A stretch of 23,285 bases of DNA from a virus (lineage: Duplodnaviria; Heunggongvirae; Uroviricota; Caudoviricetes), in IMG/VR virus record IMGVR_UViG_2563366962_000008. The stretch is one strand, 5' to 3'. Each line of letters starts with the position of its first letter. Position 1 is the stretch's first letter. Shown here one piece after another: positions 5,423 through 22,674 of the stretch. Both the position numbers and the translations under genes were made by a program. The notes under the pieces were generated by a model, which was not told the origin of the DNA, did not search any database, and saw nothing but the letters and a program-made list of their open reading frames with translations.

Positions 5423-5768
5423 TTTTCAGAATGCCTTTGATGCTGCCCTCGCCGGGGTAGACAGTACGATCGTTGAAGTGATGGGGCTCTGTGCGCAGTT
5501 CACCTCGGGGGCACAGTGTGGCAGCGAAGTTCAGGGGGTTTTTGATGATCCGGAGTCGCTGGGGTTTGCCGGTGGCGGGGTCCGTATTGAAGGAAGCAGC
5601 CCGTCATTATTTGTGCGGACGGATACGGTTCGTGCCGTGCGGCGTGGTGACACGCTGACCATTAATGGTGAGATATTCTGGGTGGATCGTGTTTCTCCGG
5701 ATGACGGGGGCAGCTGTTATCTCTGGCTCAACCGTGGTCAACCACCCGCAGTTAACCGGCGACGATAA
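5415..5768 (+). CDS. FII: Head-tail connector protein FII
   Basis: 117-aa ORF (lambda FII is 117 aa); GVFDDPE, GSSPSLFVRTD, RRGDTLTI and FWVDRVSPDDGGSC match lambda FII as recalled. Confidence 0.9.
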   Translation: MRDFQNAFDAALAGVDSTIVEVMGLCAQFTSGAQCGSEVQGVFDDPESLGFAGGGVRIEGSSPSLFVRTDTVRAVRRGDTLTINGEIFWVDRVSPDDGGSCYLWLNRGQPPAVNRRR

Positions 5769-5783
5769 ACGCAGGGTGAAATT

Positions 5784-6317
5784 ATGGCGATAAAAGGGCT
5801 TGATCAGGCGATTGACAATCTGAGCCGGGTTCGTAAAAACGCCATTCCGGCGGCTTCAGCAATGGCCATTAACCGCGTGGCCACAACGGCGATTAATCAG
5901 TCTTCATCACAGGTTGCCCGGGAGACAAAGGTTCGCCGGAAACTGGTTAAGGAACGGTCCAGACTGAAACGGGCGACGGTCAGAAATCCGAATGCCAGAA
6001 TTATCGTTAACCGCGGTGATCTCCCTGTGATTAAGCTGGGGATCAGGATGCTGGGGCGTCGCCCGAACAGCATACTTAAAGCCGGTCAGCATCGGTATCA
6101 GCGGGCATTTATTCAGAGATTAAAAAATGGTCGCTGGCATGTCATGCAGCGTGTGGCCGGGAAAAACCGTTACCCCATTGATGTGGTGAAAATCCCGATG
6201 GCGGCCCCACTGAAACAGGCATTTGATGAGAATGTTGACCGTATCCGGCGTGAACGCCTGCCTAAAGAACTGGCATACGCGCTGAAACAACAACTGAGGA
6301 TTGCAATAAAACGATGA
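5784..6317 (+). CDS. Z: Tail completion protein gpZ
   Basis: 177-aa ORF; MAIKGL, SSQVARETKVRRKLVKER and FIQRLKNGRWHVMQRVAGKNRYPIDVVKIPMA match lambda Z (192 aa), with a shorter, different basic segment mid-protein; stop overlaps the U start as ATGA. Confidence 0.85.
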   Translation: MAIKGLDQAIDNLSRVRKNAIPAASAMAINRVATTAINQSSSQVARETKVRRKLVKERSRLKRATVRNPNARIIVNRGDLPVIKLGIRMLGRRPNSILKAGQHRYQRAFIQRLKNGRWHVMQRVAGKNRYPIDVVKIPMAAPLKQAFDENVDRIRRERLPKELAYALKQQLRIAIKR

Positions 6318-6709
6318 AACACACTGACATTCGTGCCGCAGTGCTGGATGCACTCGAGCAGCATGAACACGGGGCGACGCTGTTTGATGGTCGCCCCGTT
6401 GTTTTTGACGAAGAGGATTTTCCTGCGATCGCGGTTTATCTGACGGATGCAGAGTATACCGGTGAAGAGCTGGATGCAGATACCTGGCGGGCCACGCTGC
6501 ATATTGAGGTGTTTTTACCGGCACAGGTACCGGATTCAGAGCTTGATCAGTGGATGGAAAGCCGGATTTACCCGGCGATGACCGCGATCCCGGCACTGGC
6601 AGGACTGATTACCACGATGGTTACGCAGGGCTATGAGTATCGTCGTGATGACGATATGGCGTTATGGAGTTCTGCAGATCTGACTTATTCCATTACATAC
6701 GAGATGTGA
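6314..6709 (+). CDS. U: Tail terminator protein gpU
   Basis: 131-aa ORF (lambda U is 131 aa); [15 protein letters not shown]...[17 protein letters not shown]...[13 protein letters not shown] matches lambda U. Confidence 0.9.
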
Positions 6710-6716
6710 GGACGAT

Positions 6717-7469
6717 ATGGCAACACCAAATCCCCTTGAGCCGGTAAAAGGTGCCGGTACCACTCTGTGGGTTTACAACGGCAAGGGTGATGCTTATGCA
6801 AACCCGTTGTCAGACGATGACTGGCAGCGACTGGCTAAGGTGAAGGATCTGACGCCGGGCGAGATGACGGCAGAATCCTACGATGATAACTACCTGGATG
6901 ATGAAGACGCGGACTGGACCGCGACCGGGCAGGGGCAGAAATCTGCAGGTGATACCAGTTTTACGCTGGCCTGGAAACCGGGAGAGGAAGGCCAGAAAGG
7001 GCTTATAGGCTGGTTTGAAAGCGGCGATGTCCGGGCCTATAAAATCCGTTTTCCGAATGGCACGGTGGATGTGTTTCGTGGCTGGGTCAGCAGTATCGGT
7101 AAGGCCGTGACGGCGAAAGAAGTGATCACCCGCACGGTGAAAGTCACTAACGTGGGTAAACCTTCTGTAGCGGAAGAACGCAGCAAAATTACGCCGGTCA
7201 GTGCGATTAAGGTGACGCCGACATCCGGTACGGTGGCAAAAGGGAAAACAACCACCCTGACGGTTTCTTTTGAGCCGGAAAGTGCAACCGACAAGACGTT
7301 CAGAGCGGTTTCCGCCGATCCGTCGAAAGCCACCATTAGTGTGAAAGATATGACAATTACGGTAAACGGCGTGGCGACAGGTAAGGTGCAGATCCCTGTG
7401 GTGAGCGGAAATGGTCAGTTCGCCGCAGTGGCTGAAGTCACCGTTACTGAAGCGGGCGCTGCAGGGTAA
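6717..7469 (+). CDS. V: Major tail tube protein gpV with C-terminal Ig-like (Big_2-type) domain
   Basis: 250-aa ORF (lambda V is 246 aa); [50 protein letters not shown] and C-terminal ITVNGVA...[11 protein letters not shown] match lambda V. Confidence 0.95.
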
Positions 7470-7482
7470 ACGGAGGTAATAC

Positions 7483-7914
7483 ATGTTTCTGAAAACAGAA
7501 CAATTTGAATATAACGGTGTGTCTGTCACGCTTTCCGAATTGTCTGCGCTGCAGCGTATCGAGCATCTTGCCCTCCTGAAACGGCGTGCAGAACAGGCAG
7601 AATCCTGCGGCAACCTGCAGGTAAGCGTGGAAGATCTCGTCAGAACCGGCGCGTTTCTGGTGGCGATGTCCCTGTGGCATAACCATCCACAGAAAACGCA
7701 GTCACCGTCAATGAATGAGGCCGTGATGAAGATAGAGCAGGAAGTGCTCACCACCTGGCCTGCCGATGCCATTGCCCGGGCGGAAGACGTGGTGTTGTGC
7801 CTGTCCGGGATGATCGAAGCTGTTCGTCCGGATACTGATATTACTGAAGTGGCGAAAAATAACACGCTGACTGATGATGATTTTTCTGCGGGAAAGTCTT
7901 CGACGGCGAGCTGA
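7483..7914 (+). CDS. G: Tail assembly chaperone gpG
   Basis: 143-aa ORF (lambda G is 140 aa); MFLKTE.FE.NGV.VTLSELSALQRIEHLAL and AMSLWHNHPQKTQ.PSMNEAV match lambda G; RBS GGAGG at 7472-7476. Confidence 0.9.
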   Translation: MFLKTEQFEYNGVSVTLSELSALQRIEHLALLKRRAEQAESCGNLQVSVEDLVRTGAFLVAMSLWHNHPQKTQSPSMNEAVMKIEQEVLTTWPADAIARAEDVVLCLSGMIEAVRPDTDITEVAKNNTLTDDDFSAGKSSTAS

Positions 7915-8354
7915 ACTTTGCCCTCAGACTGGCGCGTGAGATGGGGAGACCCGACTGGCGCGCCATGCTTGCCGGGATGACATCCACCGAATATGCCGAC
8001 TGGCACCGTTTTTACCGCACGCATTATTTTCAGGATACCCAGCTGGATATGCATTTTTCCGGGCTGACGTACGCTGTACTCAGCCTGTTTTTTTGCGATC
8101 CGGATATGCATCCCTCTGATTTCAGTCTGCTTGTCCCCCGGCATGAGGAAGAGCAGGTGGAGAGGCCGGATGAGGACAAAATGCTGATGCAGAAAGCGGC
8201 AGGACTTGCCGGAGGCGTCCGGTTCGGTGGGGACGGAGGGCGCGATATTTTATCGTCTGCGGATGTGGCGGATGTCATGGTGGATGATGCCGCATTAATG
8301 ATGGCTTCAGCGGGGATTCCGGGAGGTGTGAGATATGTCCCAGCCGGTTGGTGA
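7483..8354 (+). CDS. T: Tail assembly chaperone gpGT fusion made by -1 frameshifting at 7890-7896; T moiety about 7896-8354
   Basis: -1 frame ORF (track 7941-8354) reads MGRPDWRAMLAGM.STEYADWHRFY.THYF...DMHFSGLTY.VLSLFF.DPDMHP.DFSLL, matching lambda T as recalled; there is no independent RBS for T. Confidence 0.8.
7890..7896 (+). promoter_or_regulatory. Programmed -1 ribosomal frameshift slippery heptamer GGGAAAG (G to G-T)
   Basis: GGGAAAG sits 16 nt upstream of the G stop; the -1 frame is open from here to 8354 and encodes the T-like sequence; same heptamer and position as the lambda G|T shift. Confidence 0.7.
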
Positions 8355-10908
8355 TCTTGTTATTGACCTGAGTCTGGATGCTGTCCGTTTCGATGAGCAG
8401 ATGAGCCGGGTAAGGCGTCATTTTTCAGGTCTGGATACCGACGCCAGAAAAACCGCCAGTGCTGTTGAACAGGGCCTGAGCCGCCAGGCGCTGGCTGCAC
8501 AAAAAGCCGGGATTTCCGTCGGGCAGTATAAAGCGGCCATGCGAACCCTGCCCGCACAGTTTACGGATATCGCCACGCAGCTTGCCGGTGGTCAGAATCC
8601 CTGGTTGATCCTGCTGCAACAGGGCGGTCAGGTGAAGGACTCCTTCGGCGGGATGATCCCCATGTTCAGGGGGCTTGCCGGTGCGATCACCCTGCCGATG
8701 GTCGGGGTCACCTCGCTGGCGGTGGCGACAGGTGCGCTGGCGTACGCCTGGTACCAGGGCGACGCCACGCTTTCAGAATTTAATAAAACGCTGGTCCTTT
8801 CCGGCAATCAGGCCGGACTGACTGCCGATCGTATGCTGACGCTCTCAAGAGCCGGGCAGGCAGCAGGGCTGACGTTTAACCAGGCGAGAGAGTCACTGGC
8901 AGCCTTGGTGAATGCCGGTGTGCGTGGTGGTGAACAGTTTGATGCCATCAACCAGAGTGTCGCGCGTTTTGCGTCTGCATCCGGTGTGGAGGTGGATAAA
9001 GTCGCTGAAGCCTTCGGGAAGCTGACCACTGACCCGACGTCGGGACTGATGGCGATGGCGCGCCAGTTCCGTAACGTGACGGCAGAGCAGATTGCGTATG
9101 TTGCACAGCTGCAGCGTTCCGGAGACGAGGCCGGGGCATTGCAGGCGGCGAACGATATCGCCACGAAAGGCTTTGATGAGCAGACCCGTCGCCTGAAAGA
9201 AAACATGGGAACACTGGAGACCTGGGCGGATAAAACAGGGAAGGCATTCAAATCGATGTGGGATGCCATTCTGGATATCGGTCGTCCGGAATCCTCAGCG
9301 GATATGCTCGCCAGTGCGCAGAAGGCATTTGATGAGGCGGATAAAAAATGGCAGTGGTACCAGAGCCGGAGCCAGCGCCGGGGAAAGACCTCCTCTTTTC
9401 GTGCGAACCTTCAGGGGGCATGGGATGACCGGGAAAATGCCCGTCTGGGTCTGGCAGCGGCCACGCTGCAGTCGGATATGGAAAAAGCCGGTGAACTGGC
9501 GGCAAGGGACAGGGCTGAGCGTGAGTCGTCACAGCTGAAGTATACCGGAGAGGCGCAGAAGGCGTATGAGCGCCTGCAGACGCCGCTGGATAAATATACC
9601 GCCCGTCAGAAAGAGCTGAATAAGGCCCTGAAAGACGGAAAAATCCTGCAGGCGGATTACAACACGCTGATGGCGTCGGCAAAAAAGGATTATGAATCGA
9701 CGCTGAAAAAGCCGTCAGGTGTGAAGGTGTCTGCCGGTGAGCGCCAGGAAGACCGGGCGCATGCAGCCCTGCTGGCGCTTGAAACCGAGCTCAGGACGCT
9801 GGAAAAACACAGCGGTGTGAATGAGAAAATCAGCCAGCAGCGCCGGGATTTATGGGAAGCGGAAAGTCAGTATGTGGTCCTGAAAGAGGCCGCCACGAAA
9901 CGGCAGTTATCTGAGCAGGAAAAATCCCTGCTGGCTCATGAGAAAGAGACGCTGGAGTACAAACGCCAGCTGGCTGAGCTGGGAGACAAGATTGAACACC
10001 AGAAGCGGCTGAATGAGCTGGCACAGCAGGCGGCGCGGTTTGAACAGCAGCAAAGCGCGAAGCAGGCGGCAATCAGCGCAAAAGCCCGCGGCCTCACCGA
10101 CCGTCAGGCGCAGCGGGAGTCGGAAGAGCAGCGCCTTCGTGAGGTGTACGGTGATAATCCGGCTGCGCTGGCGAAGGCCACATCGGCACTGAAGAACACC
10201 TGGTCTGCGGAGGAGCAGCTTCGTGGAAGCTGGATGGCCGGGATGAAGTCCGGCTGGGGAGAGTGGGCGGAAAGTGCGACGGACAGTTTTTCGCAGGTTA
10301 AAAGTGTGGCCACGCAGACCTTTGACGGTATTGCACAGAATATGGCGGCGATGCTGACCGGCAGCGAACAGAACTGGCGGGGATTCACCCGTTCCGTGCT
10401 GTCCATGATGACAGAAATTCTGCTTAAGCAGGCAATGGTGGGGATTGTCGGGAGTATCGGCAGCGCCATTGGCGGGGCTGTTGGTGGCGGCGCATCCGCG
10501 TCAGGCGGTACAGCCATTCAGGCCGCTGCGGCGAAATTCCATTTTGCAACCGGAGGATTTACGGGAACCGGCGGCAAATATGAGCCAGCGGGGATTGTTC
10601 ACCGTGGTGAGTTTGTCTTCACGAAGGAGGCAACCAGCCGGATTGGCGTGGGGAATCTCTATCGGCTGATGCGCGGCTATGCCACCGGTGGTTATGTCGG
10701 TACACCGGGCAGTCTGGCTGACAGCCGGTCGCAGGCGTCCGGGACGTTTGAGCAGAATAACCATGTGGTGATTAACAACGACGGCACGAACGGGCAGATA
10801 GGTCCGGCTGCTCTGAAGGCGGTGTATGACATGGCCCGCAAGGGTGCCCGTGATGAAATCCAGGCACAGATGCGCGATGGTGGTCTGTTCTCCGGAGGTG
10901 GACGATGA
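8335..10908 (+). CDS. H: Tail tape measure protein gpH
   Basis: 857-aa ORF (lambda H is 853 aa) between G-T and M; long coiled-coil-like E/K/Q/A-rich centre and Gly-rich C-terminus; stop overlaps the M start as ATGA. Confidence 0.95.
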   Translation: MSQPVGDLVIDLSLDAVRFDEQMSRVRRHFSGLDTDARKTASAVEQGLSRQALAAQKAGISVGQYKAAMRTLPAQFTDIATQLAGGQNPWLILLQQGGQVKDSFGGMIPMFRGLAGAITLPMVGVTSLAVATGALAYAWYQGDATLSEFNKTLVLSGNQAGLTADRMLTLSRAGQAAGLTFNQARESLAALVNAGVRGGEQFDAINQSVARFASASGVEVDKVAEAFGKLTTDPTSGLMAMARQFRNVTAEQIAYVAQLQRSGDEAGALQAANDIATKGFDEQTRRLKENMGTLETWADKTGKAFKSMWDAILDIGRPESSADMLASAQKAFDEADKKWQWYQSRSQRRGKTSSFRANLQGAWDDRENARLGLAAATLQSDMEKAGELAARDRAERESSQLKYTGEAQKAYERLQTPLDKYTARQKELNKALKDGKILQADYNTLMASAKKDYESTLKKPSGVKVSAGERQEDRAHAALLALETELRTLEKHSGVNEKISQQRRDLWEAESQYVVLKEAATKRQLSEQEKSLLAHEKETLEYKRQLAELGDKIEHQKRLNELAQQAARFEQQQSAKQAAISAKARGLTDRQAQRESEEQRLREVYGDNPAALAKATSALKNTWSAEEQLRGSWMAGMKSGWGEWAESATDSFSQVKSVATQTFDGIAQNMAAMLTGSEQNWRGFTRSVLSMMTEILLKQAMVGIVGSIGSAIGGAVGGGASASGGTAIQAAAAKFHFATGGFTGTGGKYEPAGIVHRGEFVFTKEATSRIGVGNLYRLMRGYATGGYVGTPGSLADSRSQASGTFEQNNHVVINNDGTNGQIGPAALKAVYDMARKGARDEIQAQMRDGGLFSGGGR

Positions 10909-11234
10909 AAACCTTCCGCTGGAAAGTGAAACCCGGGATGGATGTGACATCGGCTCCTTCCGTCAGGGAGGTGCGCTTTGGTGATGGCTATTCCCAGCGT
11001 GCGCCTGCCGGGCTGAACGCTGACCTGAAAACGTACAGCGTGACGCTGTCTGTCTCCCGTGAGGAGGCCACGGCGCTGGAGTCGTTTCTGGCTGAGCACG
11101 GGGGCTGGAAGGCCTTTCTGTGGACGCCGCCTTATGGTTACAGGCAGATAAAGGTGACCTGCGCAAAATGGTCGTCGCGGGTCAGTATGCTGCGTGTTGA
11201 GTTCAGCGCAGAGTTTGAACAGGTGGTGAACTGA
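10905..11234 (+). CDS. M: Tail tip assembly protein gpM
   Basis: 109-aa ORF, near-identical over its length to lambda M as recalled (MKTFRWKVKPGMDV...RVEFSAEFEQVVN). Confidence 0.9.
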   Translation: MKTFRWKVKPGMDVTSAPSVREVRFGDGYSQRAPAGLNADLKTYSVTLSVSREEATALESFLAEHGGWKAFLWTPPYGYRQIKVTCAKWSSRVSMLRVEFSAEFEQVVN

Positions 11235-11932
11235 TGCAGGATATCCGGCAGGAAACACTGAATGAATGCACCCGTGCGGAGCAGTCGGCCAGCGTGGTGC
11301 TCTGGGAAATCGATCTGACAGAGGTCGGTGGAGAACGTTATTTTTTCTGTAATGAGCAGAACGAAAAAGGTGAGCCGGTCACCTGGCAGGGGAGGCAGTA
11401 TCAGGCGTATCCCATTCAGGGGAGCGGTTTTGAACTGAATGGCAAAGGCACCAGTACGCGGCCCACGCTGGCAGTCTCTAACCTGTACGGCATGGTCACC
11501 GGTATGGTGGAAGATATGCAGAGTCTGGTCGGCGGAACGGTGGTCCGGCGTAAGGTTTACGCCCGTTTTCTGGATGCGGTGAACTTCGTCAACGGAAACA
11601 GAGACGCCGATCCGGAGCAGGAGGTGATCAGCCGCTGGCGCATCGAGCAGTGCAGCGAACTGAGCGCGGTGAGTGCCTCCTTTGTACTGTCCACGCCGAC
11701 GGAAACGGATGGCGCTGTTTTTCCGGGGCGTATCATGCTGGCCAACACCTGCACCTGGACCTATCGCGGTGATGAGTGCGGTTATCACGGTCCGGCAGTC
11801 GCGGATGAATATGACCAGCCGACGTCCGATATCACGAAGGATAAATGCAGCAAATGCCTGAGCGGCTGTAAGTTTCGCAATAACGTCGGCAACTTTGGCG
11901 GCTTCCTTTCCATTAACAAACTTTCGCAGTAA
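11234..11932 (+). CDS. L: Tail tip protein gpL
   Basis: 232-aa ORF (lambda L is 232 aa), near-identical to lambda L as recalled; Cys-rich C-terminus CTWTYRGDECGY...CSKCLSGC; TGATG overlap with M. Confidence 0.95.
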   Translation: MQDIRQETLNECTRAEQSASVVLWEIDLTEVGGERYFFCNEQNEKGEPVTWQGRQYQAYPIQGSGFELNGKGTSTRPTLAVSNLYGMVTGMVEDMQSLVGGTVVRRKVYARFLDAVNFVNGNRDADPEQEVISRWRIEQCSELSAVSASFVLSTPTETDGAVFPGRIMLANTCTWTYRGDECGYHGPAVADEYDQPTSDITKDKCSKCLSGCKFRNNVGNFGGFLSINKLSQ

Positions 11933-11936
11933 TCCC

Positions 11937-12680
11937 ATGACAGAGACAGAATCAGCGATTCTGGCGCACGCCCGGCGATGTGCGCCAGCGGAGTCGTGCG
12001 GCTTCGTGGTAAGCACGCCGGAGGGGGAAAGATATTTCCCCTGCGTGAATATCTCCGGTGAGCCGGAGGCGTATTTCCGGATGGCTCCGGAGGACTGGCT
12101 GCAGGCAGAGATGCAGGGTGAGATTGTGGCGCTGGTCCACAGCCACCCCGGTGGTCTGCCCTGGCTGAGTGAGGCTGACCGGCGGCTGCAGGTGCAGAGC
12201 GATTTGCCGTGGTGGCTGGTCTGCCGGGGGGCGATTCACAAGTTCCGCTGTGTGCCGCATCTCACCGGGCGGCGCTTTGAGTACGGGGTGACAGACTGTT
12301 ACACACTGTTCCGGGATGCTTACCATCTGGCGGGGATTGAGATGCCGGATTTTCATCGCGGGGATGACTGGTGGCGTCACGGTCAGAATCTCTATCTTGA
12401 CAATATGGAGGCTACTGGTTTTTACCGTGTCGCACTGACAGAGGCGCAGCCGGGCGATGTGCTGCTGTGCTGTTTTGGTTCATCGGTGCCGAATCACGCC
12501 GCCATTTACTGCGGCGACGGTGAGCTGCTGCACCATATTCCTGAACAACTGAGTAAACGAGAGAGGTATACCGACAAATGGCAGCGACGCACACACTCCC
12601 TCTGGCGTCACCGGGAATGGCACGCATCTGCCTTTACGGGGATTTGCAACGATTTGGCCGCCGCATCGACCTTCGTGTGA
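11937..12680 (+). CDS. K: Tail tip assembly protein gpK (JAMM/MPN-like plus NlpC/P60-like motifs)
   Basis: ATG at 11937, 5 nt after the L stop (MTETESAILAHARRC...); JAMM-type motif HSHPGG...SEAD; downstream Cys (VTDCYTLF) and His (VPNHAAIY) fit an NlpC/P60 fold. The ORF-track start at 11895 lies inside L. Confidence 0.85.
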   Translation: MTETESAILAHARRCAPAESCGFVVSTPEGERYFPCVNISGEPEAYFRMAPEDWLQAEMQGEIVALVHSHPGGLPWLSEADRRLQVQSDLPWWLVCRGAIHKFRCVPHLTGRRFEYGVTDCYTLFRDAYHLAGIEMPDFHRGDDWWRHGQNLYLDNMEATGFYRVALTEAQPGDVLLCCFGSSVPNHAAIYCGDGELLHHIPEQLSKRERYTDKWQRRTHSLWRHREWHASAFTGICNDLAAASTFV

Positions 12681-13219
12681 AAACGGGGGCTGAAGCCATC
12701 CGGGCACTGGCCACACAGCTCCCGGCGTTTCGTCAGAAACTGAGCGATGGCTGGTATCAGGTACGGATTGCCGGGCGGGATGCAGGAGAAACCGAATTAT
12801 CATCCCGTCTTAATGAGCCGCTGGCAAATGGTGCCGTGATCCACATCGTGCCGCGTCTTGCGGGAGCAAAAAGTGGCGGTGTGTTTCAGGCGGTGCTGGG
12901 TGCGGCGTTGATTGCTACGGCAATCTGGATGCCGGGGATCAGTATCGCTTTCAGTGACATTCTCTTTTCAATGGGTGCGGCGATGACGCTTGGTGGTGTG
13001 GCGCAGATGCTGGCACCGAAAGCCAGAACTCCCCGTACACAGACAACGGATAACGGCAAACAGAACACCTATTTCTCCTCACTGGATAACATGGTTGCCC
13101 AGGGCAATGTCCTGCCTGTTCTGTACGGTGAAATGCGCGTGGGGTCACGTGTGGCATCTCAGGAGATCAGCACGGCAGATGAAGGGGATGGTGGTCAGGT
13201 TGTGGTAATTGGGCGGTAA
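12578..13219 (+). CDS. I: Tail tip assembly protein gpI
   Basis: 213-aa ORF overlapping the 3' end of K as in lambda; MAATHTLPLASPGMARICLYGDLQRFGRRIDLRVKTGAEAIRALATQLPAFRQKL and C-terminal LAPKARTPR.QTTDNGKQNTYFSSLDNMVAQGNVLPVLYGEMRVGSRV match lambda I. Confidence 0.9.
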   Translation: MAATHTLPLASPGMARICLYGDLQRFGRRIDLRVKTGAEAIRALATQLPAFRQKLSDGWYQVRIAGRDAGETELSSRLNEPLANGAVIHIVPRLAGAKSGGVFQAVLGAALIATAIWMPGISIAFSDILFSMGAAMTLGGVAQMLAPKARTPRTQTTDNGKQNTYFSSLDNMVAQGNVLPVLYGEMRVGSRVASQEISTADEGDGGQVVVIGR

Positions 13220-13292
13220 TATTATTTTACTCATGTTCTAACTAATTTAATATTTATATCGAACACTGATAATTATTCTATTGGTTAGCTAT
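13220..13292 (+). promoter_or_regulatory. AT-rich leader of the lipoprotein cassette; possible autonomous promoter, hexamers not confidently assigned
   Basis: About 80% A+T block immediately after the I stop, unlike the flanking GC-rich phage DNA; contains a GATAAT-like -10 candidate at 13268-13273. Confidence 0.2.
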
Positions 13293-13631
13293 ATGAACAA
13301 AACGATTTTATTCTGCACGATTATTGCCTTAACAGGATGTAAATCTTTGGATTACGTAAAATCCGGAAAACCTGTAATGGAAGGTAATTCATTAAAAAAT
13401 ATTGATGAATTGTCAGGCTGCATATCCAGACAATGGGCTGGTAATGGAACACCTATAACATCCCTTCCTATTGAGAATGGGGTAAGCCTTTTAGTTCCAC
13501 AGGCTATGGGGGGATATGATGTTGTGCTTGATATCAAAAAAGCAGGAAATGGCAGTAGTTTTACTCTTTATGAACGTGTACCAGCATTAACGCCAAAAAT
13601 TTTTGCTGATAGTGTTAATGCATGTAAATAA
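13293..13631 (+). CDS. Small secreted lipoprotein of unknown function (moron inserted between I and J)
   Basis: 112-aa ORF from ATG 13293 (track start 13281 is TTG); N-terminus MNKTILFCTIIALTGC is a signal peptide with lipobox L-T-G-C; mature part has two further Cys; gene is visibly AT-rich versus its neighbours; followed by its own terminator. Confidence 0.7.
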   Translation: MNKTILFCTIIALTGCKSLDYVKSGKPVMEGNSLKNIDELSGCISRQWAGNGTPITSLPIENGVSLLVPQAMGGYDVVLDIKKAGNGSSFTLYERVPALTPKIFADSVNACK

Positions 13632-13655
13632 TAGTTAATCCTGTCGTAACTCATG

Positions 13656-13684
13656 AGCCGCCTTTTGGGCGGCTTTGTTGTTTA
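13656..13684 (+). terminator. Rho-independent terminator after the lipoprotein gene
   Basis: AGCCGCC (13656-13662), loop TTTTG, GGCGGCT (13668-13674), then TTGTTGTTTAT; 25 nt after the stop and 14 nt before the J start. Confidence 0.55.
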
Positions 13685-13697
13685 TGGAGTGTGAGGA

Positions 13698-16600
13698 ATG
13701 GGTAAAGGAAGCAGTAAGGGGCATACCCCGCGCGAAGCGAGGGACAACCTGAAGTCCACGCAGCTGCTGAGTGTGATCGATGCCATCAGCGAAGGGCCGG
13801 TTGAAGGTCCGGTGGACGGATTAAAAAGCGTGCTGCTGAACAGTACGCCGGTGCTGGACAGTGAGGGGAATACCAATATATCCGGTGTCACGGTGGTGTT
13901 CCGGGCAGGTGAGCAGGAGCAGACACCGCCGGAGGGATTTGAATCCTCCGGCTCCGAGACGGTGCTGGGTACGGAAGTGAAATATGACACGCCGATCACC
14001 CGGACCATCACGTCGGCAAACATCGACCGTCTGCGCTTTACCTTCGGTGTGCAGGCACTGGTGGAAACCACCTCAAAGGGGGACAGGAATCCGTCGGAAG
14101 TCCGCCTGCTGGTTCAGATCCAGCGTAACGGTGGCTGGGTGACGGAAAAAGACATCACCATTAAGGGCAAAACCACCTCGCAGTATCTGGCCTCGGTGGT
14201 GGTGGATAACCTGCCGCCGCGCCCGTTTAATATCCGGATGCGCAGGATGACGCCGGACAGCACCACAGACCAGCTGCAGAACAAAACGCTCTGGTCGTCA
14301 TACACCGAAATCATCGATGTGAAACAGTGCTACCCGAACACGGCACTGGTCGGCGTGCAGGTGGACTCGGAGCAGTTCGGCAGCCAGCAGGTGAGCCGTA
14401 ATTATCATCTTCGCGGGCGCATTCTGCAGGTGCCGTCGAACTATAACCCGCAGACGCGGCAATACAGCGGTATCTGGGACGGAACGTTTAAACCGGCATA
14501 CAGCAACAACATGGCCTGGTGTCTGTGGGATATGCTGACCCATCCGCGCTACGGCATGGGGAAGCGTCTCGGTGCGGCGGATGTGGACAAATGGGCGCTG
14601 TATGTCATCGGCCAGAATTGCGACCAGTCGGTGCCGGATGGCTTTGGTGGCACGGAGCCGCGCATCACCTGTAATGCCTACCTGACCACACAGCGCAAGG
14701 CGTGGGATGTGCTCAGTGATTTCTGCTCGGCGATGCGCTGTATGCCGGTATGGAACGGGCAGACGCTGACGTTCGTGCAGGACCGACCGTCGGATAAGGT
14801 GTGGACCTATAACCGCAGTAATGTGGTGATGCCGGATGATGGCGCGCCGTTCCGCTACAGCTTCAGCGCCCTGAAAGACCGCCATAATGCCGTTGAGGTG
14901 AACTGGATTGACCCGGATAACGGCTGGGAGACGGCGACAGAGCTTGTGGAGGACACGCAGGCCATTGCCCGTTACGGTCGTAACGTCACGAAGATGGATG
15001 CCTTTGGCTGTACCAGCCGGGGGCAGGCACACCGCGCCGGGCTGTGGCTGATTAAAACGGAACTGCTGGAGACGCAGACCGTGGATTTCAGCGTGGGTGC
15101 TGAAGGGCTTCGCCATGTACCGGGCGATGTCATTGAAATCTGCGATGATGACTATGCCGGTATCAGCACCGGTGGTCGCGTGCTGGCGGTGAACAGCCAG
15201 ACCCGGACGCTGACGCTCGACCGTGAAATCACGCTGCCATCCTCCGGTACCACGCTGATAAGCCTGGTTGACGGTCAGGGTAATCCGGTCAGCGTGGAGG
15301 TCCAGTCCGTCACCGACGGCGTGAAGGTGAAAGTGAGCCGTGTTCCTGACGGCGTTGCAGAATACAGCGTGTGGGGGCTGAAGCTGCCGACGCTGCGCCA
15401 GCGCCTGTTCCGCTGCGTGAGTATCCGTGAGAACGATGACGGCACGTATGCCATCACCGCCGTGCAGCATGTACCGGAGAAAGAAGCCATCGTGGATAAC
15501 GGGGCGCACTTTGACGGTGACCAGAGCGGCACGGTGAATGGTGTCACGCCGCCAGCAGTGCAGCACCTGACCGCCGAAGTCACTGCAGACAGCGGGGAAT
15601 ATCAGGTGCTGGCGCGATGGGACACACCGAAGGTGGTGAAGGGCGTGAGCTTCCTGCTCCGTCTGACCGTAACAGCGGACGACGGCAGTGAGCGACTGGT
15701 CAGCACGGCCCGGACGACGGAAACCACATACCGCTTCACGCAACTGGCGCTGGGGAACTACAGGCTGACAGTCCGGGCGGTAAATGCCCGGGGGCAGCAG
15801 GGCGATCCGGCGTCGGTATCGTTCCGGATTGCCGCACCGGCAGCACCGTCGAGGATTGAGCTGACGCCGGGCTATTTTCAGATAACCGCCACGCCGCATC
15901 TTGCTGTTTATGACCCGACGGTACAGTTTGAGTTCTGGTTCTCGGAAAAGCGGATTACCGATATCAGGCAGGTTGAAACCACAGCCCGCTATCTTGGTAC
16001 GGCGCTGTACTGGATAGCCGCCAGTATCAATATCAAACCGGGCCATGATTATTATTTTTACGTTCGCAGTGTGAACACCGTTGGCAAATCGGCATTCGTG
16101 GAGGCTGTCGGTCGGGCGAGCGATGATGCGGAAGGTTACCTGGATTTTTTCAAAGGAGAAATCGGGAAAACACATCTGGCCCAGGAGTTGTGGACGCAGA
16201 TTGATAACGGTCAGCTTGCGCCGGACCTGGCTGAAATCAGGACGTCCATTACGAATGTCAGCAATGAAATCACGCAGACCGTCAATAAAAAACTGGAAGA
16301 CCAGAGTGCGGCAATCCAGCAGATACAGAAAGTTCAGGTTGATACAAATAATAACCTGAACAGCATGTGGGCCGTGAAACTGCAGCAGATGAAGGACGGA
16401 CGCCTTTATATTGCGGGTATCGGAGCCGGTATTGAGAATACGCCAGCAGGTATGCAGAGTCAGGTGCTTCTGGCTGCTGACCGGATTGCGATGATTAATC
16501 CTGCGAATGGCAACACAAAGCCGATGTTTGTTGGTCAGGGCGATCAGATATTCATGAACGACGTGTTCCTGAAACGCCTGACGGCTCCGACCATTACCAG

Positions 16601-17177
16601 CGGCGGTAATCCTCCGGCATTTTCCCTGACACCGGACGGGCGGCTGACGGCGAAAAATGCCGATATCAGCGGTAACGTGAATGCGAACTCCGGGACGCTC
16701 AACAACGTCACGATTAACGAGAACTGTCGGGTTCTGGGAAAATTGTCCGCCAACCAGATTGAAGGCGATCTCGTTAAAACAGTGGGCAAAGCTTTCCCCC
16801 GGGACTCCCGTGCACCGGAACGGTGGCCATCAGGGACCATCACCGTCAGGGTTTATGACGATCAGCCGTTTGACCGGCAGATTGTTATTCCGGCGGTGGC
16901 ATTCAGCGGCGCTAAACATGAGCGGGAGAATAACGATATTTATTCGTCATGCCGCCTGATAGTACGGAAAAACGGTGCTGAAATTTATAACCGTACCGCG
17001 CTGGATAATACGCTGATTTACAGTGGTGTTATTGATATGCCAGCTGGTCGCGGCCACATGACGCTGGAGTTTTCGGTGTCAGCATGGCTGGTGAATAACT
17101 GGTATCCCACAGCAAGTATCAGCGATTTGCTGGTTGTGGTGATGAAGAAAGCCACCGCAGGCATCAGTATCAGCTGA
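13698..17177 (+). CDS. J: Central tail fibre / tail tip host-specificity protein gpJ
   Basis: 1159-aa ORF (lambda J is 1132 aa); the first ~800 aa look near-identical to lambda J as recalled ([33 protein letters not shown]...); the C-terminal ~340 aa are mosaic, with the last ~150 aa divergent. Confidence 0.95.
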
Positions 17178-17194
17178 ATTTTATAACCCATATA

Positions 17195-17222
17195 CGGGCG
17201 CCAGAAATGGCGCCTTTTTTAT
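17195..17222 (+). terminator. Rho-independent terminator after J
   Basis: GGCGCC (17197-17202), loop AGAAAT, GGCGCC (17209-17214), followed by TTTTTTATT. Confidence 0.6.
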
Positions 17223-17244
17223 TGCAGAAAAGCGAGAGGTAATT

Positions 17245-17844
17245 ATGCGTAAAGTTTGTGCAGTCATTTTGTCCGCAGCCATCTGTCTGTCCGTATCCGG
17301 TGCGCCTGCATGGGCGTCTGAACATCAGTCCACACTGAGCGCGGGGTATCTTCATGCCCGTACGAACGCTCCCGGCAGCGATAATCTGAACGGGATTAAC
17401 GTGAAATACCGTTATGAGTTTACGGACGCGCTGGGGCTGATTACGTCCTTCAGTTATGCCAATGCTGAGGATGAGCAAAAAACGCACTACAGCGATACCC
17501 GCTGGCATGAAGATTCCGTGCGTAACCGCTGGTTCAGCGTGATGGCGGGGCCGTCTGTACGCGTGAATGAATGGTTCAGCGCGTATTCGATGGCGGGTGT
17601 GGCTTACAGCCGTGTGTCGACTTTCTCCGGGGATTATCTCCGCGTAACTGACAACAAGGGGAAAACGCACGATGTGCTGACCGGAAGTGATGACGGTCGC
17701 CACAGCAACACGTCTCTGGCGTGGGGGGCTGGCGTGCAGTTTAACCCGACCGAATCCGTGACCATTGACCTTGCTTATGAAGGTTCCGGTAGTGGCGACT
17801 GGCGAACGGATGCATTTATTGTTGGTATCGGATACCGTTTCTGA
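17245..17844 (+). CDS. lom: Outer-membrane beta-barrel protein Lom (Ail/Lom family moron)
   Basis: 199-aa ORF with signal peptide MRKVCAVILSAAICLSVSGAPAWA; LKGINVKYRYE, SVMAGP, AYEGSGSGDWRTD.FIVG.GY.F match lambda Lom as recalled; RBS GAGAGG; same position as lom in lambda. Confidence 0.9.
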   Translation: MRKVCAVILSAAICLSVSGAPAWASEHQSTLSAGYLHARTNAPGSDNLNGINVKYRYEFTDALGLITSFSYANAEDEQKTHYSDTRWHEDSVRNRWFSVMAGPSVRVNEWFSAYSMAGVAYSRVSTFSGDYLRVTDNKGKTHDVLTGSDDGRHSNTSLAWGAGVQFNPTESVTIDLAYEGSGSGDWRTDAFIVGIGYRF

Positions 17845-17948
17845 CAACAGACGCCGATTTATCTTCTGTAAATATTGTTATGATACGCAGGTTCATCCAC
17901 TTTATGGGGTGAACTGCGTTTGAGGAAACGTAAAGTTACACTGTCCTG

Positions 17949-17982
17949 AAGCCCGTGGCGTCACTGCTGCGGGCTTTTTTTA
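17949..17982 (+). terminator. Terminator-like hairpin plus T-run between lom and stf
   Basis: GCCCG (17951-17955) ... CGGGC (17970-17974) followed by TTTTTTT (17975-17981). Confidence 0.45.
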
Positions 17983-17995
17983 TTGGTGGAAAAGT

Positions 17996-20900
17996 ATGAC
18001 AGTAAAAATTTCTGGCGTGCTTAAAGATGGCACAGGAAAACCAGTACAGAACTGCACCATTGTGCTGAAGGCCAGACGAACCAGCAGCACGGTGGTGGTG
18101 AACACGGTGGCCTCTGAAAATCCGGATGAAGCCGGACGTTACAGCATGGATGTTGAGCATGGTCAGTACAGCGTCACCCTGCTGGTTGAAGGTTTTCCGC
18201 CTTCACATGCCGGGACCATTACCGTCTATGAAGGTTCCAGACCAGGTACGCTGAATGATTTTCTCGGTGCCATGACGGAGGATGATGTCCGACCGGAGGC
18301 ACTGCGCCGCTTTGAGCAGATGGTGGAAGAGGTGTCACGTAACGCCTCCGCGGTTGCACAGAATACGGCAGCCGCGAAAAAATCAGCCAGCGATGCCAGT
18401 GCATCAGCCAGCGAGGCGGCAACTCATGCAACCGATGCTGCAGCCTCAGCACGTGCCGCCAGCACGTCAGCCGGACAGGCCGCGTCGTCGGCTCAGTCAG
18501 CGTCTTCCAGCGCAGGAACGGCATCGACAAAGGCCCGTGAAGCAGCAAAAAGTGCTGCTGCTGCAGAGTCATCAAAAAGCGCGGCAGCTACCAGCGCCAG
18601 TGCCGCGAAAACGTCAGAAACGAATGCCGCAGCGTCACAACAATCAGCAGCCACTTCTGCATCCACCGCGACCACGAAAGCGTCAGAAGCAGCCACTTCA
18701 GCACGGGATGCGTCGGCTTCAAAAGAGGCGGCAAAATCATCAGAAACGAACGCAGCCTCGAGCGCCAGCAGCGCAGCTTCCTCGGCAACGGCGGCAGCAA
18801 ATTCTGCGAAGGCGGCAAAAACGTCCGAGACGAACGCCAGGTCTTCTGAAACGGCAGCGGGACAGAGCGCCTCAGCTGCGGCAGACTCAAAAACAGCGGC
18901 TGCATTATCTGCCAGTGCCGCGTCAACAAGTGCCGGGCAGGCCTCAGCCAGTGCCACCGCCGCCGGAAAATCGGCAGAAAGTGCTGCATCGTCTGCTTCA
19001 ACAGCCACAACGAAGGCTGGCGAAGCCGCTGTACAGGCCAGCGCAGCAGCGAGGTCTGCTTCCGCAGCGAAGACATCCAAGACGAACGCGAAAGCGTCGG
19101 AAACCAGCGCAGAATCCTCAAAAACGGCTGCCGCATCGTCCGCCAGTTCGGCGGCGTCATCGGCATCATCTGCGTCTGCTTCAAAAGATGAGGCGACCAG
19201 ACAGGCGTCAGCAGCAAAGGGCAGCGCCACGACGGCATCCACGAAGGCGACAGAGGCAGCTGGCAGTGCGACGGCGGCAGCTCAGAGCAAAAGTACGGCG
19301 GAATCCGCGGCAACGCGCGCTGAGACAGCGGCAAAACGGGCAGAGGATATTGCATCCGCCGTGGCGCTTGAGGATGCGAGCACGACGAAAAAGGGGATAG
19401 TACAGCTCAGCAGTGCGACTAACAGCACTTCCGAGTCACTGGCGGCAACGCCAAAAGCCGTTAAGGCCGCGTATGAGCTGGCTAACGGGAAATACACCGC
19501 ACAGGATGCAACGACAGCACAGAAAGGGATAGTTCAGCTTAGCAACGCGACCAACAGCACATCTGAAATGCTGGCGGCAACGCCAAAGTCGGTAAAGGCA
19601 GCCTATGACCTTGCTAACGGGAAATATACTGCTCAGGACGCTACGACAGCACAAAAAGGAATTGTCCAGCTCAGTAGTGCAACCAACAGCACATCTGAAA
19701 TGCTGGCGGCAACGCCAAAGTCGGTAAAGGCAGCCTATGACCTTGCTAACGGGAAATATACTGCTCAGGACGCTACGACAGCACAAAAAGGAATTGTCCA
19801 GCTCAGTAGTGCAACCAACAGCACATCTGAAATGCTGGCGGCAACGCCAAAGTCGGTAAAGGCAGCCTATGACCTTGCTAACGGGAAATATACTGCTCAG
19901 GACGCTACGACAGCACAAAAAGGAATTGTCCAGCTCAGTAGTGCAACCAACAGCACATCTGAAATGCTGGCGGCAACGCCAAAGTCGGTAAAGGCAGCCT
20001 ATGACCTTGCTAACGGGAAATATACTGCTCAGGACGCTACGACAGCACAAAAAGGAATTGTCCAGCTCAGTAGTGCAACCAACAGCGCATCTGAAACGCT
20101 TGCCGCGACACCGAAAGCAGTGAAAGCAGCTAATAATAATGCGAATGGTCGGGTACCTTCTGCCCGTAAGGTGAATGGTAAGGCGCTTTCAGCGGATATA
20201 ACACTGACGCCGAAAGATATTGGTACGCTTAACTCAACAACAATGTCATTCAGCGGTGGTGCTGGTTGGTTCAAATTAGCAACGGTAACCATGCCACAGG
20301 CGAGTTCTGTTGTTTCAATTACGTTGATTGGTGGTGCGGGATTTAACGTGGGGTCACCTCAACAGGCAGGTATATCTGAACTTGTTTTGCGTGCAGGTAA
20401 TGGTAATCCGAAGGGGATTACTGGTGCTTTATGGCAGCGCACATCGACAGGGTTTACAAATTTTGCCTGGGTCAATACATCTGGTGATACTTACGATATT
20501 TACGTTGCAATCGGAAATTATGCGACTGGTGTAAATATTCAATGGGATTATACCAGTAATGCCAGCGTGACGATTCATACGTCACCAGCATATTCTGCTA
20601 ATAAGCCGGAAGGGTTAACGGACGGTACAGTTTATTCACTCTATACGCCATCAGAGCAGTTTTATCCGCCTGGCGCACCAATCCCGTGGCCATCAGATAC
20701 CGTTCCGTCTGGCTATGCCCTGATGCAGGGGCAGACTTTTGACAAATCTGCATACCCGAAACTTGCAGCCGCTTATCCGTCAGGCGTGATCCCTGATATG
20801 CGTGGCTGGACGATTAAGGGCAAACCCGCCAGTGGTCGTGCCGTATTGTCTCAGGAACAGGACGGCATTAAATCGCACACCCACAGCGCCAGCGCATCCA

Positions 20901-21367
20901 GTACGGATTTGGGGACGAAAAACACATCGTCGTTTGATTACGGAACCAAATCCACGAATAACACCGGGGCGCATACGCACAGTCTGAGTGGCTCTACGGG
21001 GTCTGCCGGTGATCATACTCATGGTAATGGTATTCGTTGGCCAGGAGGCGGCGGTTCTGCGTTAGCATTTTATGATGGCGGTGGGTTCACTTATGTCCAG
21101 GATTCACAGTATCAAGTAAGCCCGGGGACTTCTTCCCGTAGATCGTATTATCAACGTATTCAGACACAGTCAGCAGGTGCTCATACCCACTCGCTGTCTG
21201 GTACTGCAGCAAGTTCTGGCGCACATGCACATACTGTAGGTATTGGTGCGCATACGCACTCCGTTGCGATTGGTTCACATGGACACACCATCACCGTTAA
21301 CGCTGCTGGTAACGCGGAAAACACCGTCAAAAACATCGCATTTAACTATATTGTGAGGCTTGCATAA
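17996..21367 (+). CDS. stf: Side tail fibre protein Stf, intact, with Ala/Ser/Thr-rich shaft, internal 44-aa tandem repeats and His-rich C-terminal tip
   Basis: 1123-aa ORF; N-terminus [26 protein letters not shown]...[38 protein letters not shown] and C-terminus ...[31 protein letters not shown] match lambda Stf as recalled; TAATG overlap with tfa. Confidence 0.9.
19373..20131 (+). repeat. In-frame tandem array of 132-bp (44-codon) units inside stf, about 5.7 copies
   Basis: Units begin at 19373, 19505, 19637, 19769, 19901 and 20033 (partial); units 3-5 are identical at nucleotide level, units 1, 2 and 6 diverged; each encodes [44 protein letters not shown]. Confidence 0.85.
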
Positions 21368-22005: not shown

Positions 22006-22674
22006 CTATTTTTTCCCTGAAGCGGAAAACATTACTACAGTACCTTTAACCTTGGTTTTAACATTCTCGAAATGCTCTGAGAGTATATGTGTTAAGCCTT
22101 CTTCGGAATCTTTTGTGTTTGAAAAGATGCCTTTTTGATTGTAAATGCGCATCAGTTTTTGACCGAAGCTATTGTGCACAACGCCGTCACCAAGAATTGT
22201 GGCTCCGTATAGAGTTCCATCGTCAGTTAAGGCCTGCGCCGCATTGCGTATTACACAGCTTTTTGTAGATATATTTCCAGGCAGGCAGTGAAGAAGGTAA
22301 AACATGGAAATGGAATCAAATTGACCATGTAACGCCGCGGGATAAGGTTCAAAAACATCATGGCTAATTTTATGTTTAATTTTTGATTCCCCAGCCCTTG
22401 TCGATGCCGCGTTCAGGCTAGCTTCGTTCAAATCCATTAAAGATATCAGACTACTCTCAGGTACGTGAGTAAGGTAAAACCCAGTTCCAACACCAATATC
22501 CAGATGGTTGTTACCTACATGTTCCAGAAAGTGTGGAAGAAGGTGTTCCTTTGTAGGACATCCCCATGCAAGCCGATTTGATACTCCCAAAACCCACCAG
22601 TCATAAAGCTTTAGGGTAAGTGGTGTGTAAATTTTAGCCCCATCATCTGTGTTTTTTTTCATTAATTTCACCAT
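22006..22674 (-). CDS. Class I SAM-dependent methyltransferase (Rossmann-fold), substrate unknown; AT-rich moron
   Basis: 222-aa minus-strand ORF; motif I LDIGVGTGFY (D-x-G-x-G-x-G); acidic residue after beta-2 (LMDLNE); alternative start at 22662 (MKKNTDD) preceded by GGTGA; composition much more AT-rich than the phage genes. Confidence 0.65.
   Translation of the reverse strand: MVKLMKKNTDDGAKIYTPLTLKLYDWWVLGVSNRLAWGCPTKEHLLPHFLEHVGNNHLDIGVGTGFYLTHVPESSLISLMDLNEASLNAASTRAGESKIKHKISHDVFEPYPAALHGQFDSISMFYLLHCLPGNISTKSCVIRNAAQALTDDGTLYGATILGDGVVHNSFGQKLMRIYNQKGIFSNTKDSEEGLTHILSEHFENVKTKVKGTVVMFSASGKK

What the first reader, a model, noticed from the sequence alone, without database searches (positions are those of the whole stretch)
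16150..17177. Mosaic C-terminal region of J suggests a different primary receptor from lambda
The first ~800 residues of J look nearly identical to lambda J from memory, but from about residue 820 the sequence alternates between divergent and conserved blocks, and the last ~150 residues, the receptor-binding region in lambda J, differ substantially (ending ...[74 protein letters not shown]). That is the signature of receptor-domain swapping. Its adjacency to the inserted lipoprotein cassette is notable.
Basis: partly seen in the sequence, partly recalled or inferred. Interest (0 to 1): 0.45.

Follow-up and report, generated by a model that had tools for sequence, protein, structure and literature searches.

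The report
Prophage tail-tip protein with OmpC-type receptor domain

Summary
J (13698-17177, 1159 aa) is 98% identical to lambda J over aa 1-800. Identity then falls to 31% over aa 822-925 (with a 27-aa insertion), rises to 87% over 926-1010, and falls to 42% over 1011-1159.

Informative sites place one sharp recombination junction at nt 16079-16106 (aa ~795-803). Downstream of it the gene is 97-100% identical in protein to J of EHEC-type prophages such as PPompW_EH2246.

Residues 992-1159 match, at 163/168 positions, the natural C-terminus used to build the engineered lambda chimera "gpJ 1A2" (Brödel et al., Nature 2024). That chimera delivers DNA into lamB-deleted cells only if a suitable OmpC is present. 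A different receptor from lambda, most likely OmpC, is therefore well supported by homology but not shown for this protein.

None of this is new. Modular exchange of the J specificity region was described in 2018. This domain type occurs in 3,379 of 5,426 complete E. coli genomes, against 98 for lambda's own type. The window's J protein is identical to that of the ompW-integrated prophage of UTI89.

The upstream lipoprotein cassette is an independent insert with no specific link to this receptor domain.

The parts
13698..17177 (+). Gene J (central tail fibre / tip attachment protein), 1159 aa, intact ORF
   Evidence: ORF list and translation. NCBIfam lambda_TipJ NF049904 scores 2388 bits against a cut-off of 1950 over the full length. 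The protein is 100% identical to UTI89 WP_000515773.1.
13667..16079 (+). Lambda/434/phi21-like segment: hub domains and the two FNIII domains (J aa 1 to ~795)
   Evidence: 95.7% nt identity to lambda. Identity is 91-100% per 120-nt window to lambda, 434 and phi21, but only 57-88% to the Sakai/PPompW group up to aa 720. Informative sites are almost all lambda/434-type up to nt 16079.
16079..16106 (+). Recombination junction (J aa ~795-803), in the conserved [20 protein letters not shown] stretch
   Evidence: Informative-site runs switch from lambda/434-type (last at 16079) to Sakai/PPompW-type (first of 98 consecutive sites at 16106).
16161..16472 (+). Divergent block 1 (aa 822-925): long allele of the alpha-helical shaft and top of the fibre, with 27 extra residues relative to lambda
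   Evidence: 31% identity to lambda with 28 gap columns, and 98% to PPompW_EH2246. The same long allele is in phi21, mEp460_4F5 and 640R1; the short allele is in lambda, 434 and 2G7b. The domain assignment comes from lambda residues 809-861 forming the alpha-helical shaft (PMC11101478).
16473..16727 (+). Conserved block (aa 926-1010): beta-prism central straight fibre, Pfam Phage_Tail_Tip
   Evidence: 87% identity to lambda and 98% to PPompW. PF09327 hit at J aa 872-1000, E 1.3e-31.
16671..17174 (+). Specificity module (aa 992-1159), equivalent to the piece transplanted into lambda to make gpJ 1A2. It contains the Ig-like receptor-binding domain (Pfam Ig_GpJ_C, aa 1029-1159).
   Evidence: 152/163 scorable positions match the OCR-damaged 1A2 DNA in the paper's supplement. 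163/168 match PPompW_EH2246, which agrees with 1A2 at every position not hit by OCR errors. PF12421 E 3.7e-39. Best solved relative is 9wca 'A8 gpJ 713', E 1.5e-130. Identity to lambda is 47%.
16923..16934 (+). Polymorphic loop patch R1076-N1079 (HERENND here, HEKEHTD in 1A2/PPompW)
   Evidence: Variable among eight domains of this type. It aligns with lambda J 1048/1049, an indel hot spot tied to receptor specificity (PMC6646904).
13220..13666 (+). Inserted low-GC cassette between I and J, carrying a 112-aa lipoprotein gene (13293-13631; MNKTILFCTIIALTG|C lipobox). It is adjacent to the J receptor module but not part of it.
   Evidence: Sequence read. GC is 0.42 in 13001-13500. Lambda has only 60 nt between I and J. 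phrog_914, unknown function. Present in 337 of 5,426 E. coli genomes.
17196..17215 (+). Terminator-like hairpin after J
   Evidence: Pattern scan. This is a consensus match only.

Best explanation
This is the central tail fibre gene J of a lambdoid prophage; its J protein is identical to that of the ompW-integrated prophage of UTI89 and it matches the prophage of other ST95 strains at 99.9% nucleotide identity. It is a recombinant. Roughly the first 800 residues (tail-tip hub and two FNIII domains) come from the lambda/434/phi21 lineage. From a junction at nt 16079-16106 onward, the alpha-helical shaft (long allele, +27 aa), the beta-prism fibre and the Ig-like receptor-binding domain come from the lineage found in EHEC prophages (Sakai Sp, PPompW). 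The trimeric receptor-binding domain at the tip belongs to the type named '1A2' in the engineering literature. It most likely inserts its bottom loops into the trimeric porin OmpC rather than LamB. By analogy with lambda, that binding would trigger the twist of the fibre that opens the tail tip. Shown here: the mosaic structure, the junction, the identity to the 1A2/PPompW module, and the prevalence. Inferred: that this particular variant, which has 5 substitutions, binds OmpC, and which OmpC alleles it accepts.
For: Block identities to lambda and to PPompW_EH2246, sliding identities to 10 J genes and informative-site runs establish the mosaic and its junction. The supplement of Brödel et al. 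2024 prints gpJ 1A2. A frameshift-tolerant alignment gives 152/163 identical positions for aa 992-1159. PPompW_EH2246 matches 1A2 except at 6 positions that mismatch every natural sequence and sit next to OCR frameshifts, and the window differs from PPompW at 5 of 168 positions. The paper reports that 1A2 and A8 chimeras were selected on a lamB-deleted recipient and need OmpC supplied in a lamB/ompC double mutant. 1A2 works with EDL933 OmpC but not with MG1655 OmpC (source data). PDB 9wcb holds the A8 gpJ fragment together with OmpC chains, so this family of Ig-like domains docks on OmpC directly. Pfam Ig_GpJ_C and Phage_Tail_Tip hits and the NCBIfam lambda_TipJ hit confirm the architecture.
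Against: No experiment was done on this exact sequence. Three of the five differences from 1A2 (R1076K, N1078H, N1079T) lie in the loop that aligns with lambda's 1048/1049 specificity hot spot, and R1118 is unique among the eight domains of this type that I compared. Receptor class can change with few mutations in this family. Phage 21 uses LamB natively and gains OmpC with one mutation, yet its receptor-binding domain is about 80% identical to OmpC-using A8. The 1A2 sequence was read from an OCR-damaged PDF, so its exact residues are reconstructed.
Confidence: 0.8

Rival explanations
1. The receptor-binding domain still uses LamB, alone or alongside OmpC, despite its divergence from lambda, as phage 21 does with its own divergent domain.
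For: Phage 21's native receptor is LamB although its receptor-binding domain is only about 40-45% identical to lambda's, and it groups with OmpC-using A8 at roughly 80% identity. LamB, OmpC and OmpF are all trimeric porins, and single mutations switch or widen use.
Against: The window is 97% identical to the 1A2 module, far closer than phi21 is to A8. 1A2 particles work in a lamB deletion and do nothing in a lamB/ompC double mutant complemented with K-12 OmpC, so they have no detectable LamB-independent, OmpC-independent route. Whether 1A2 can also use LamB was not the design of that test.
Confidence: 0.08
2. The five substitutions retarget the domain to another outer-membrane protein (OmpF, another porin or a non-porin), so the OmpC inference from 1A2 does not transfer.
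For: The substitutions fall at positions homologous to lambda's specificity hot spots. Lambda reaches OmpF with four mutations.
Against: The same residues (HERENND) occur in 640R1 and the O104:H4 prophage, and variation at these positions is common within this type. That looks like allele tuning inside one type rather than a jump to a new receptor. There is no positive evidence for any other receptor.
Confidence: 0.07
3. The divergence reflects decay of a cryptic prophage gene, so no receptor inference should be drawn.
For: Many E. coli prophages are defective. The VT1-Sakai and 204576 copies of J carry frameshifts (39 and 41 stops when translated in one frame).
Against: The ORF here is intact over 1159 codons. 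The protein is identical in UTI89 and the locus is 99.9% identical across many ST95 genomes. The divergent blocks are 97-100% identical to intact J genes of isolated, plaque-forming phages such as 640R1 and PhiR55_1. The window's structural genes from the portal to the tail fibre assembly gene align with UTI89 at 99.6% and carry intact ORFs.
Confidence: 0.03

Closest known systems
gpJ 1A2 (Brödel et al., Nature 2024, PMC11338833): lambda J aa 1-964 fused to a natural prophage J C-terminus
   Same: Window aa 992-1159 is the same module: 163/168 identical to PPompW_EH2246, which reproduces 1A2 at all positions read reliably. The fusion point chosen by those authors lies in the same conserved fibre stretch that separates the natural modules here.
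   Different: There are five substitutions (R1076K, N1078H, N1079T, R1118H, S1157T). Here the module sits on the long shaft allele, not on lambda's short one. It is natural, not engineered. The OmpC-allele range is untested.
J of EHEC lambdoid prophages (PPompW_EH2246, VT1-Sakai/Sp15)
   Same: 97-100% protein identity from aa 801 to the end and 92-99% nt identity. Both the UTI89-type prophage and PPompW are integrated at ompW.
   Different: The first 800 aa are only 76% identical. The window carries the lambda-lineage hub and FNIII part instead.
Lambda J (LamB-binding; PDB 8XCJ/8XCK, Ge and Wang 2024)
   Same: Same architecture and 98% identity over aa 1-800. The same Pfam domains are present, including the Ig-like receptor-binding domain fold family.
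   Different: The shaft is 27 aa longer. The receptor-binding domain is 42% identical, with different loop sequences at the positions of lambda 1012, 1048/49 and 1107. The receptor is inferred to be OmpC, not LamB.
A8 gpJ (OmpC-binding; PDB 9wca/9wcb) and phage 21 J
   Same: Same long shaft allele in phage 21 (96% over aa 822-925). Same receptor-binding domain fold family, and A8 is solved together with OmpC.
   Different: The receptor-binding domain is only about 64-66% identical, with indels in two loops. A8 accepts K-12 OmpC whereas 1A2 does not. Phage 21 itself uses LamB.
Phage 434 J (OmpC-binding)
   Same: The hub and FNIII part is 99% identical. It also uses OmpC.
   Different: A different receptor-binding domain type (41% identity, 16 gap columns) on the short shaft allele. 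OmpC use by the two types is therefore not explained by close sequence relationship.

Membership tests
Lambda-type tip attachment protein J (NCBIfam NF049904 lambda_TipJ) | Full-length match above the curated cut-off | tested here: met
   2388.5 bits against a cut-off of 1950, residues 1-1159 on profile positions 1-1163.
Lambda-type tip attachment protein J (NCBIfam NF049904 lambda_TipJ) | Position in the tail gene cluster after K and I and before lom and stf | tested here: met
   ORF order in the window and the UTI89 annotation of the 99.6-99.9% identical locus.
Lambda-type tip attachment protein J (NCBIfam NF049904 lambda_TipJ) | C-terminal tail-tip fibre domain followed by the Ig-like receptor-binding domain | tested here: met
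   PF09327 E 1.3e-31 and PF12421 E 3.7e-39. PDB sequence matches to 9wca, 8xcj and 8iyk.
LamB-binding receptor domain of lambda J | Close sequence identity to lambda J specificity region (aa 960-1132) | tested here: not met
   47% over window aa 992-1159 and 42% over 1011-1159. No nucleotide alignment after window 16727.
LamB-binding receptor domain of lambda J | LamB-dependent adsorption | not testable with these tools
   Needs adsorption or plating on lamB mutants.
1A2-type OmpC-dependent J receptor domain (Brödel 2024) | Near-identity over the transplanted segment (lambda aa 964 to end) | tested here: met
   152/163 scorable positions against the OCR text. 163/168 against PPompW_EH2246, which matches 1A2 at all reliable positions.
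1A2-type OmpC-dependent J receptor domain (Brödel 2024) | DNA delivery independent of LamB and dependent on a compatible OmpC allele | not testable with these tools
   Shown for 1A2 in the paper, not for this variant.
A8 / phage 21-type J receptor domain (PDB 9wcb complex with OmpC) | Same sequence type, including loop lengths | tested here: not met
   About 64-66% identity, with a 4-residue gap and a 5-residue gap relative to A8/phi21. Same fold family but a different type.
434-type OmpC-binding J receptor domain | Same sequence type | tested here: not met
   41% identity with 16 gap columns over aa 1011-1159.
Receptor-masking superinfection-exclusion lipoproteins (Cor, Llp), considered for the adjacent cassette | Sequence or fold similarity to a known exclusion lipoprotein | tested here: not met
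   No Pfam, NCBIfam or PADLOC family. Only phrog_914, of unknown function. Best PDB fold match is Flpp3, with TMq 0.52 and E 6e-3.
Receptor-masking superinfection-exclusion lipoproteins (Cor, Llp), considered for the adjacent cassette | Consistent linkage to one receptor-binding module | tested here: not met
   Found with 1A2-type (5 loci), phi21/A8-like (1) and 434-type (1) J genes. Homologues lie between K and I in Klebsiella prophages with J proteins over 3,100 aa, and between T and the tape measure gene in Enterobacter. The sample is small.

The most novel reading that the evidence does not exclude
The 112-aa lipoprotein inserted between I and J could be a prophage-expressed superinfection-exclusion factor that masks a porin receptor such as OmpC, the porin counterpart of Cor/Llp masking FhuA. 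In that case its position beside J would be functional. All seven E. coli loci I inspected pair it with J receptor domains of types that include experimentally shown OmpC users (1A2, A8, 434). A second, more modest possibility is that the five hot-spot substitutions tune this J to the OmpC allele of B2/ST95 strains.
Probability: 0.1. Interest if true: 0.5.

Novelty: already known. Interest (0 to 1): 0.13.

Why it matters
It matters little as a discovery. That the C-terminal specificity region of J circulates as an independent module was published in 2018 (PMC6646904). The receptor of this module type was determined and exploited for DNA delivery in 2024 (PMC11338833). The gene itself is annotated in hundreds of genomes. 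The useful points are practical. Lambda's LamB-binding domain is a rarity largely confined to laboratory lysogens. The commonest J receptor domain in E. coli is the type seen here, so annotation by analogy with lambda ('J binds LamB') is wrong for most prophages. Variation within the type concentrates at the same loop positions that control receptor choice in lambda, which would be a reasonable starting point for predicting OmpC-allele host range.

Tried and rejected
1. I searched the supplement of Brödel 2024 for the protein's C-terminal peptide and found nothing, because the supplement gives DNA and 1A2 is recoded. A DNA string search found only A8. I then read the OCR text and aligned it with a frameshift-tolerant script, because ordinary tblastn broke at OCR frameshifts.

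2. A related-loci scan of genome contigs with the lipoprotein returned only a spurious 25-residue match in a Clostridia MAG.

3. A tblastn search of the lipoprotein against the phage collection gave only two ~30% hits.

4. PADLOC, Pfam and NCBIfam gave nothing for the lipoprotein. Fold search gave only a weak Flpp3-like match.

5. I looked for receptor typing of the PhiR phages, which carry the same J type. The paper that uses them addresses tape-measure/ManYZ dependence, not J receptors.

6. I considered predicting the structure of the J C-terminus and decided against it. Sequence matches to solved structures (E 1e-130) already settle the fold, and a monomer model of an intertwined trimer would add little.

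7. I rejected the idea that the receptor domain and the lipoprotein cassette were acquired together. The cassette lies at the left end of the lambda-like segment, 2.4 kb from the junction that brought in the receptor domain.
Full report
**What is there.** The finding lies in the 3' third of a 3,480-nt ORF (13698-17177, + strand, 1159 aa). This ORF matches NCBIfam lambda_TipJ over its full length (2388 bits against a cut-off of 1950). Its C-terminal part carries Pfam Phage_Tail_Tip (aa 872-1000) and Ig_GpJ_C, 'C-terminal receptor binding domain' (aa 1029-1159). It sits in a complete lambda-like head and tail gene cluster, followed by lom (17245-17844), a side tail fibre gene (17996-21367) and a tail fibre assembly gene. 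Window 12500-18000 is 99.9% identical to a prophage of UTI89, IHE3034, NU14 and other ST95 strains, which in UTI89 is integrated at ompW. The J protein is 100% identical to UTI89 WP_000515773.1.

**Checking the observation.** Protein identity to lambda by block:

| Window J residues | Identity to lambda |
|---|---|
| 1-800 | 98% |
| 801-821 | 95% |
| 822-925 | 31%, with a 27-residue insertion in the window |
| 926-1010 | 87% |
| 1011-1159 | 42% |

At the DNA level, 13667-16194 matches lambda at 95.7% and 16364-16727 at 76%. Nothing aligns beyond 16727. The description is therefore correct in every respect, including the quoted C-terminal peptide.

**Anatomy of the mosaic.** I aligned the gene with ten other J genes: lambda, 434, 21, mEp460_4F5, 2G7b, vB_EcoS-640R1, PhiR55_1, VT1-Sakai, PPompW_EH2246 and 204576.
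- Up to about aa 720 the window groups with lambda, 434 and 21 (91-100% nt identity) and is far from the EHEC prophage group (57-88%).
- From aa 801 onward it is 92-99% identical to VT1-Sakai and PPompW, and 100% identical to phage 204576 over the last 480 nt.
- Sites that distinguish lambda/434 from Sakai/PPompW are almost all lambda-type up to nt 16079. From nt 16106 they are Sakai-type for 98 consecutive sites. There is thus one sharp junction at J aa ~795-803, inside a conserved stretch at the end of the second FNIII domain.

The other phages show that the pieces downstream also move separately. 2G7b has lambda's short shaft allele with the window's receptor domain. Phage 21 and mEp460_4F5 have the window's long shaft allele with a different receptor domain.

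Mapped onto the lambda structure (Ge and Wang 2024; alpha-helical shaft = lambda 809-861):
- Divergent block 1 is the helical shaft and the top of the fibre.
- The conserved block is the beta-prism fibre.
- Divergent block 2 is the Ig-like receptor-binding domain.

That the 27 extra residues lengthen the shaft is an inference from position, not a tested structure.

**Which receptor.** The best solved relative is PDB 9wca, 'A8 gpJ 713' (E 1.5e-130), ahead of lambda J itself. A8 and a second construct, 1A2, are lambda J chimeras made by Brödel et al. (Nature 2024), who fused natural prophage J C-termini at lambda residue 964. Both were selected on a lamB-deleted recipient and require OmpC supplied in a lamB/ompC double mutant. 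1A2 works with EDL933 OmpC but not with K-12 OmpC, whereas A8 works with both (source data).

The paper's supplement prints the 1A2 DNA, recoded and damaged by OCR. A frameshift-tolerant alignment gives 152 identical of 163 scorable residues for window aa 992-1159, against 105 of 162 for A8. The natural sequence PPompW_EH2246 matches 1A2 everywhere except six positions that mismatch every natural sequence and sit at OCR frameshifts. I therefore take 1A2 to be that type.

The window differs from it at five of 168 residues: R1076K, N1078H, N1079T, R1118H and S1157T. PDB 9wcb contains the A8 fragment together with three OmpC chains, so direct docking of this domain family on OmpC has been solved structurally. 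The inference that the window's J uses OmpC rather than LamB is therefore strong, but it rests on homology.

**Caveats.** Receptor class is labile in this family. Phage 21 uses LamB natively and gains OmpC with a single mutation, although its receptor domain is about 80% identical to OmpC-using A8. Lambda reaches OmpF with four mutations, the critical ones at residues 1012 and 1107, and natural homologues have indels at 1012, 1048/49, 1077/78 and 1107. In my alignment lambda 1048/1049 corresponds to window 1076/1077 and lambda 1107 to window 1135. The positions that vary among eight domains of the window's type (1076, 1078, 1079, 1118, 1134 and a few others) therefore include these hot spots. 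Three of the five differences from 1A2 are in that loop. I read this as tuning of OmpC-allele range within one type, and I give about 0.15 in total to LamB or another receptor.

**How common it is.** I ran megablast with the last 438 nt of J against 5,426 complete E. coli genomes:

| Receptor-domain type | Genomes with a match |
|---|---|
| Window / 1A2 type | 3,379 (median two copies per genome) |
| 434 type | 2,110 |
| Phage 21 type | 2,429, of which about 1,090 at 90% identity or more |
| Lambda type | 98, all at 99% or more, with DE3 and K-12 laboratory lysogens as the top hits |

The NCBIfam profile for this family is 1,163 positions long, which fits the long form being the norm. Seen this way, lambda is the outlier and the window carries the standard E. 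coli form.

**Prior knowledge.** Maddamsetti et al. [quoted passage not shown] Together with the 2024 receptor work, this means both the phenomenon and this particular module are already described.

**The lipoprotein cassette.** Between I (ends 13219) and J lies a 447-nt low-GC insert, where lambda has 60 nt. It encodes a 112-aa protein with a classical lipobox (LTG|C).
- It belongs to phrog_914, of unknown function, and has no Pfam, NCBIfam or PADLOC match.
- It is in 337 of 5,426 E. coli genomes.
- In seven loci I inspected it always lies between I and J. The J next to it carries the 1A2 type in five loci, a phi21/A8-like type in one and the 434 type in one.
- Homologues at about 30-62% identity occur only in Enterobacteriaceae. 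They occupy other slots of tail clusters: between K and I in phage Fraca and in Klebsiella prophages whose J proteins exceed 3,100 aa, and between T and the tape measure gene in Enterobacter.
- An AlphaFold model (pLDDT 84) resembles the Francisella lipoprotein Flpp3 only weakly (TMq 0.52, E 6e-3).

The cassette is therefore an independent accessory-gene insert (a 'moron') of siphophage tail clusters. It is 2.4 kb from the junction that brought in the receptor domain. It does coincide with the left end of the lambda-like patch: tail genes upstream are about 82% identical to lambda, while J from 13667 onward is 95.7% identical. A receptor-masking role cannot be excluded, but nothing here supports it.

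**Verdict.** The most likely receptor is OmpC (confidence about 0.8). Novelty: already known. Interest: low.

Noticed in passing
window 13220-13666 (ORF 13293-13631): A low-GC cassette between I and J encodes a 112-aa lipoprotein (phrog_914, function unknown). It is in 337 of 5,426 E. coli genomes. Homologues sit in other intergenic slots of tail clusters in Klebsiella, Enterobacter and phage Fraca. The AlphaFold model has pLDDT 84 and resembles Flpp3 only weakly.
   Followed up: yes
window 5535-13215 versus 13667-16194: Tail genes Z to I are only about 82% identical to lambda, whereas the first 2.5 kb of J is 95.7% identical. The lambda-like part of J is therefore itself a patch, and its left edge coincides with the lipoprotein cassette.
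   Followed up: partly
window 19389-20100 (inside the side tail fibre gene 17996-21367): A 132-nt (44-aa) tandem repeat is present in 5.4 copies at 93% match. The window's Stf is 1123 aa against 1035 aa in UTI89, which is two extra repeat units. This is the main difference from UTI89 in an otherwise 99.6% identical 20 kb.
   Followed up: partly
window 22006-22674, minus strand: A 222-aa ORF lies in a low-GC region (0.41-0.43) downstream of the tail fibre assembly gene. The equivalent UTI89 gene is annotated as a class I SAM-dependent methyltransferase, so it is probably another accessory gene near the prophage end.
   Followed up: no
L010 (VT1-Sakai) and L009 (phage 204576) J genes: Both J copies carry frameshifts (39 and 41 stops when translated in one frame; VT1-Sakai is annotated as two truncated CDS). 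Yet 204576 is 100% identical in nucleotide sequence to the window over the last 480 nt.
   Followed up: no
L015 (E. coli NDM1 prophage) J, 1232 aa: This J carries the same receptor-domain type (94% over the last 150 aa) but is 73 aa longer, with a different and apparently repeated helical-shaft segment. It is a third shaft allele.
   Followed up: no
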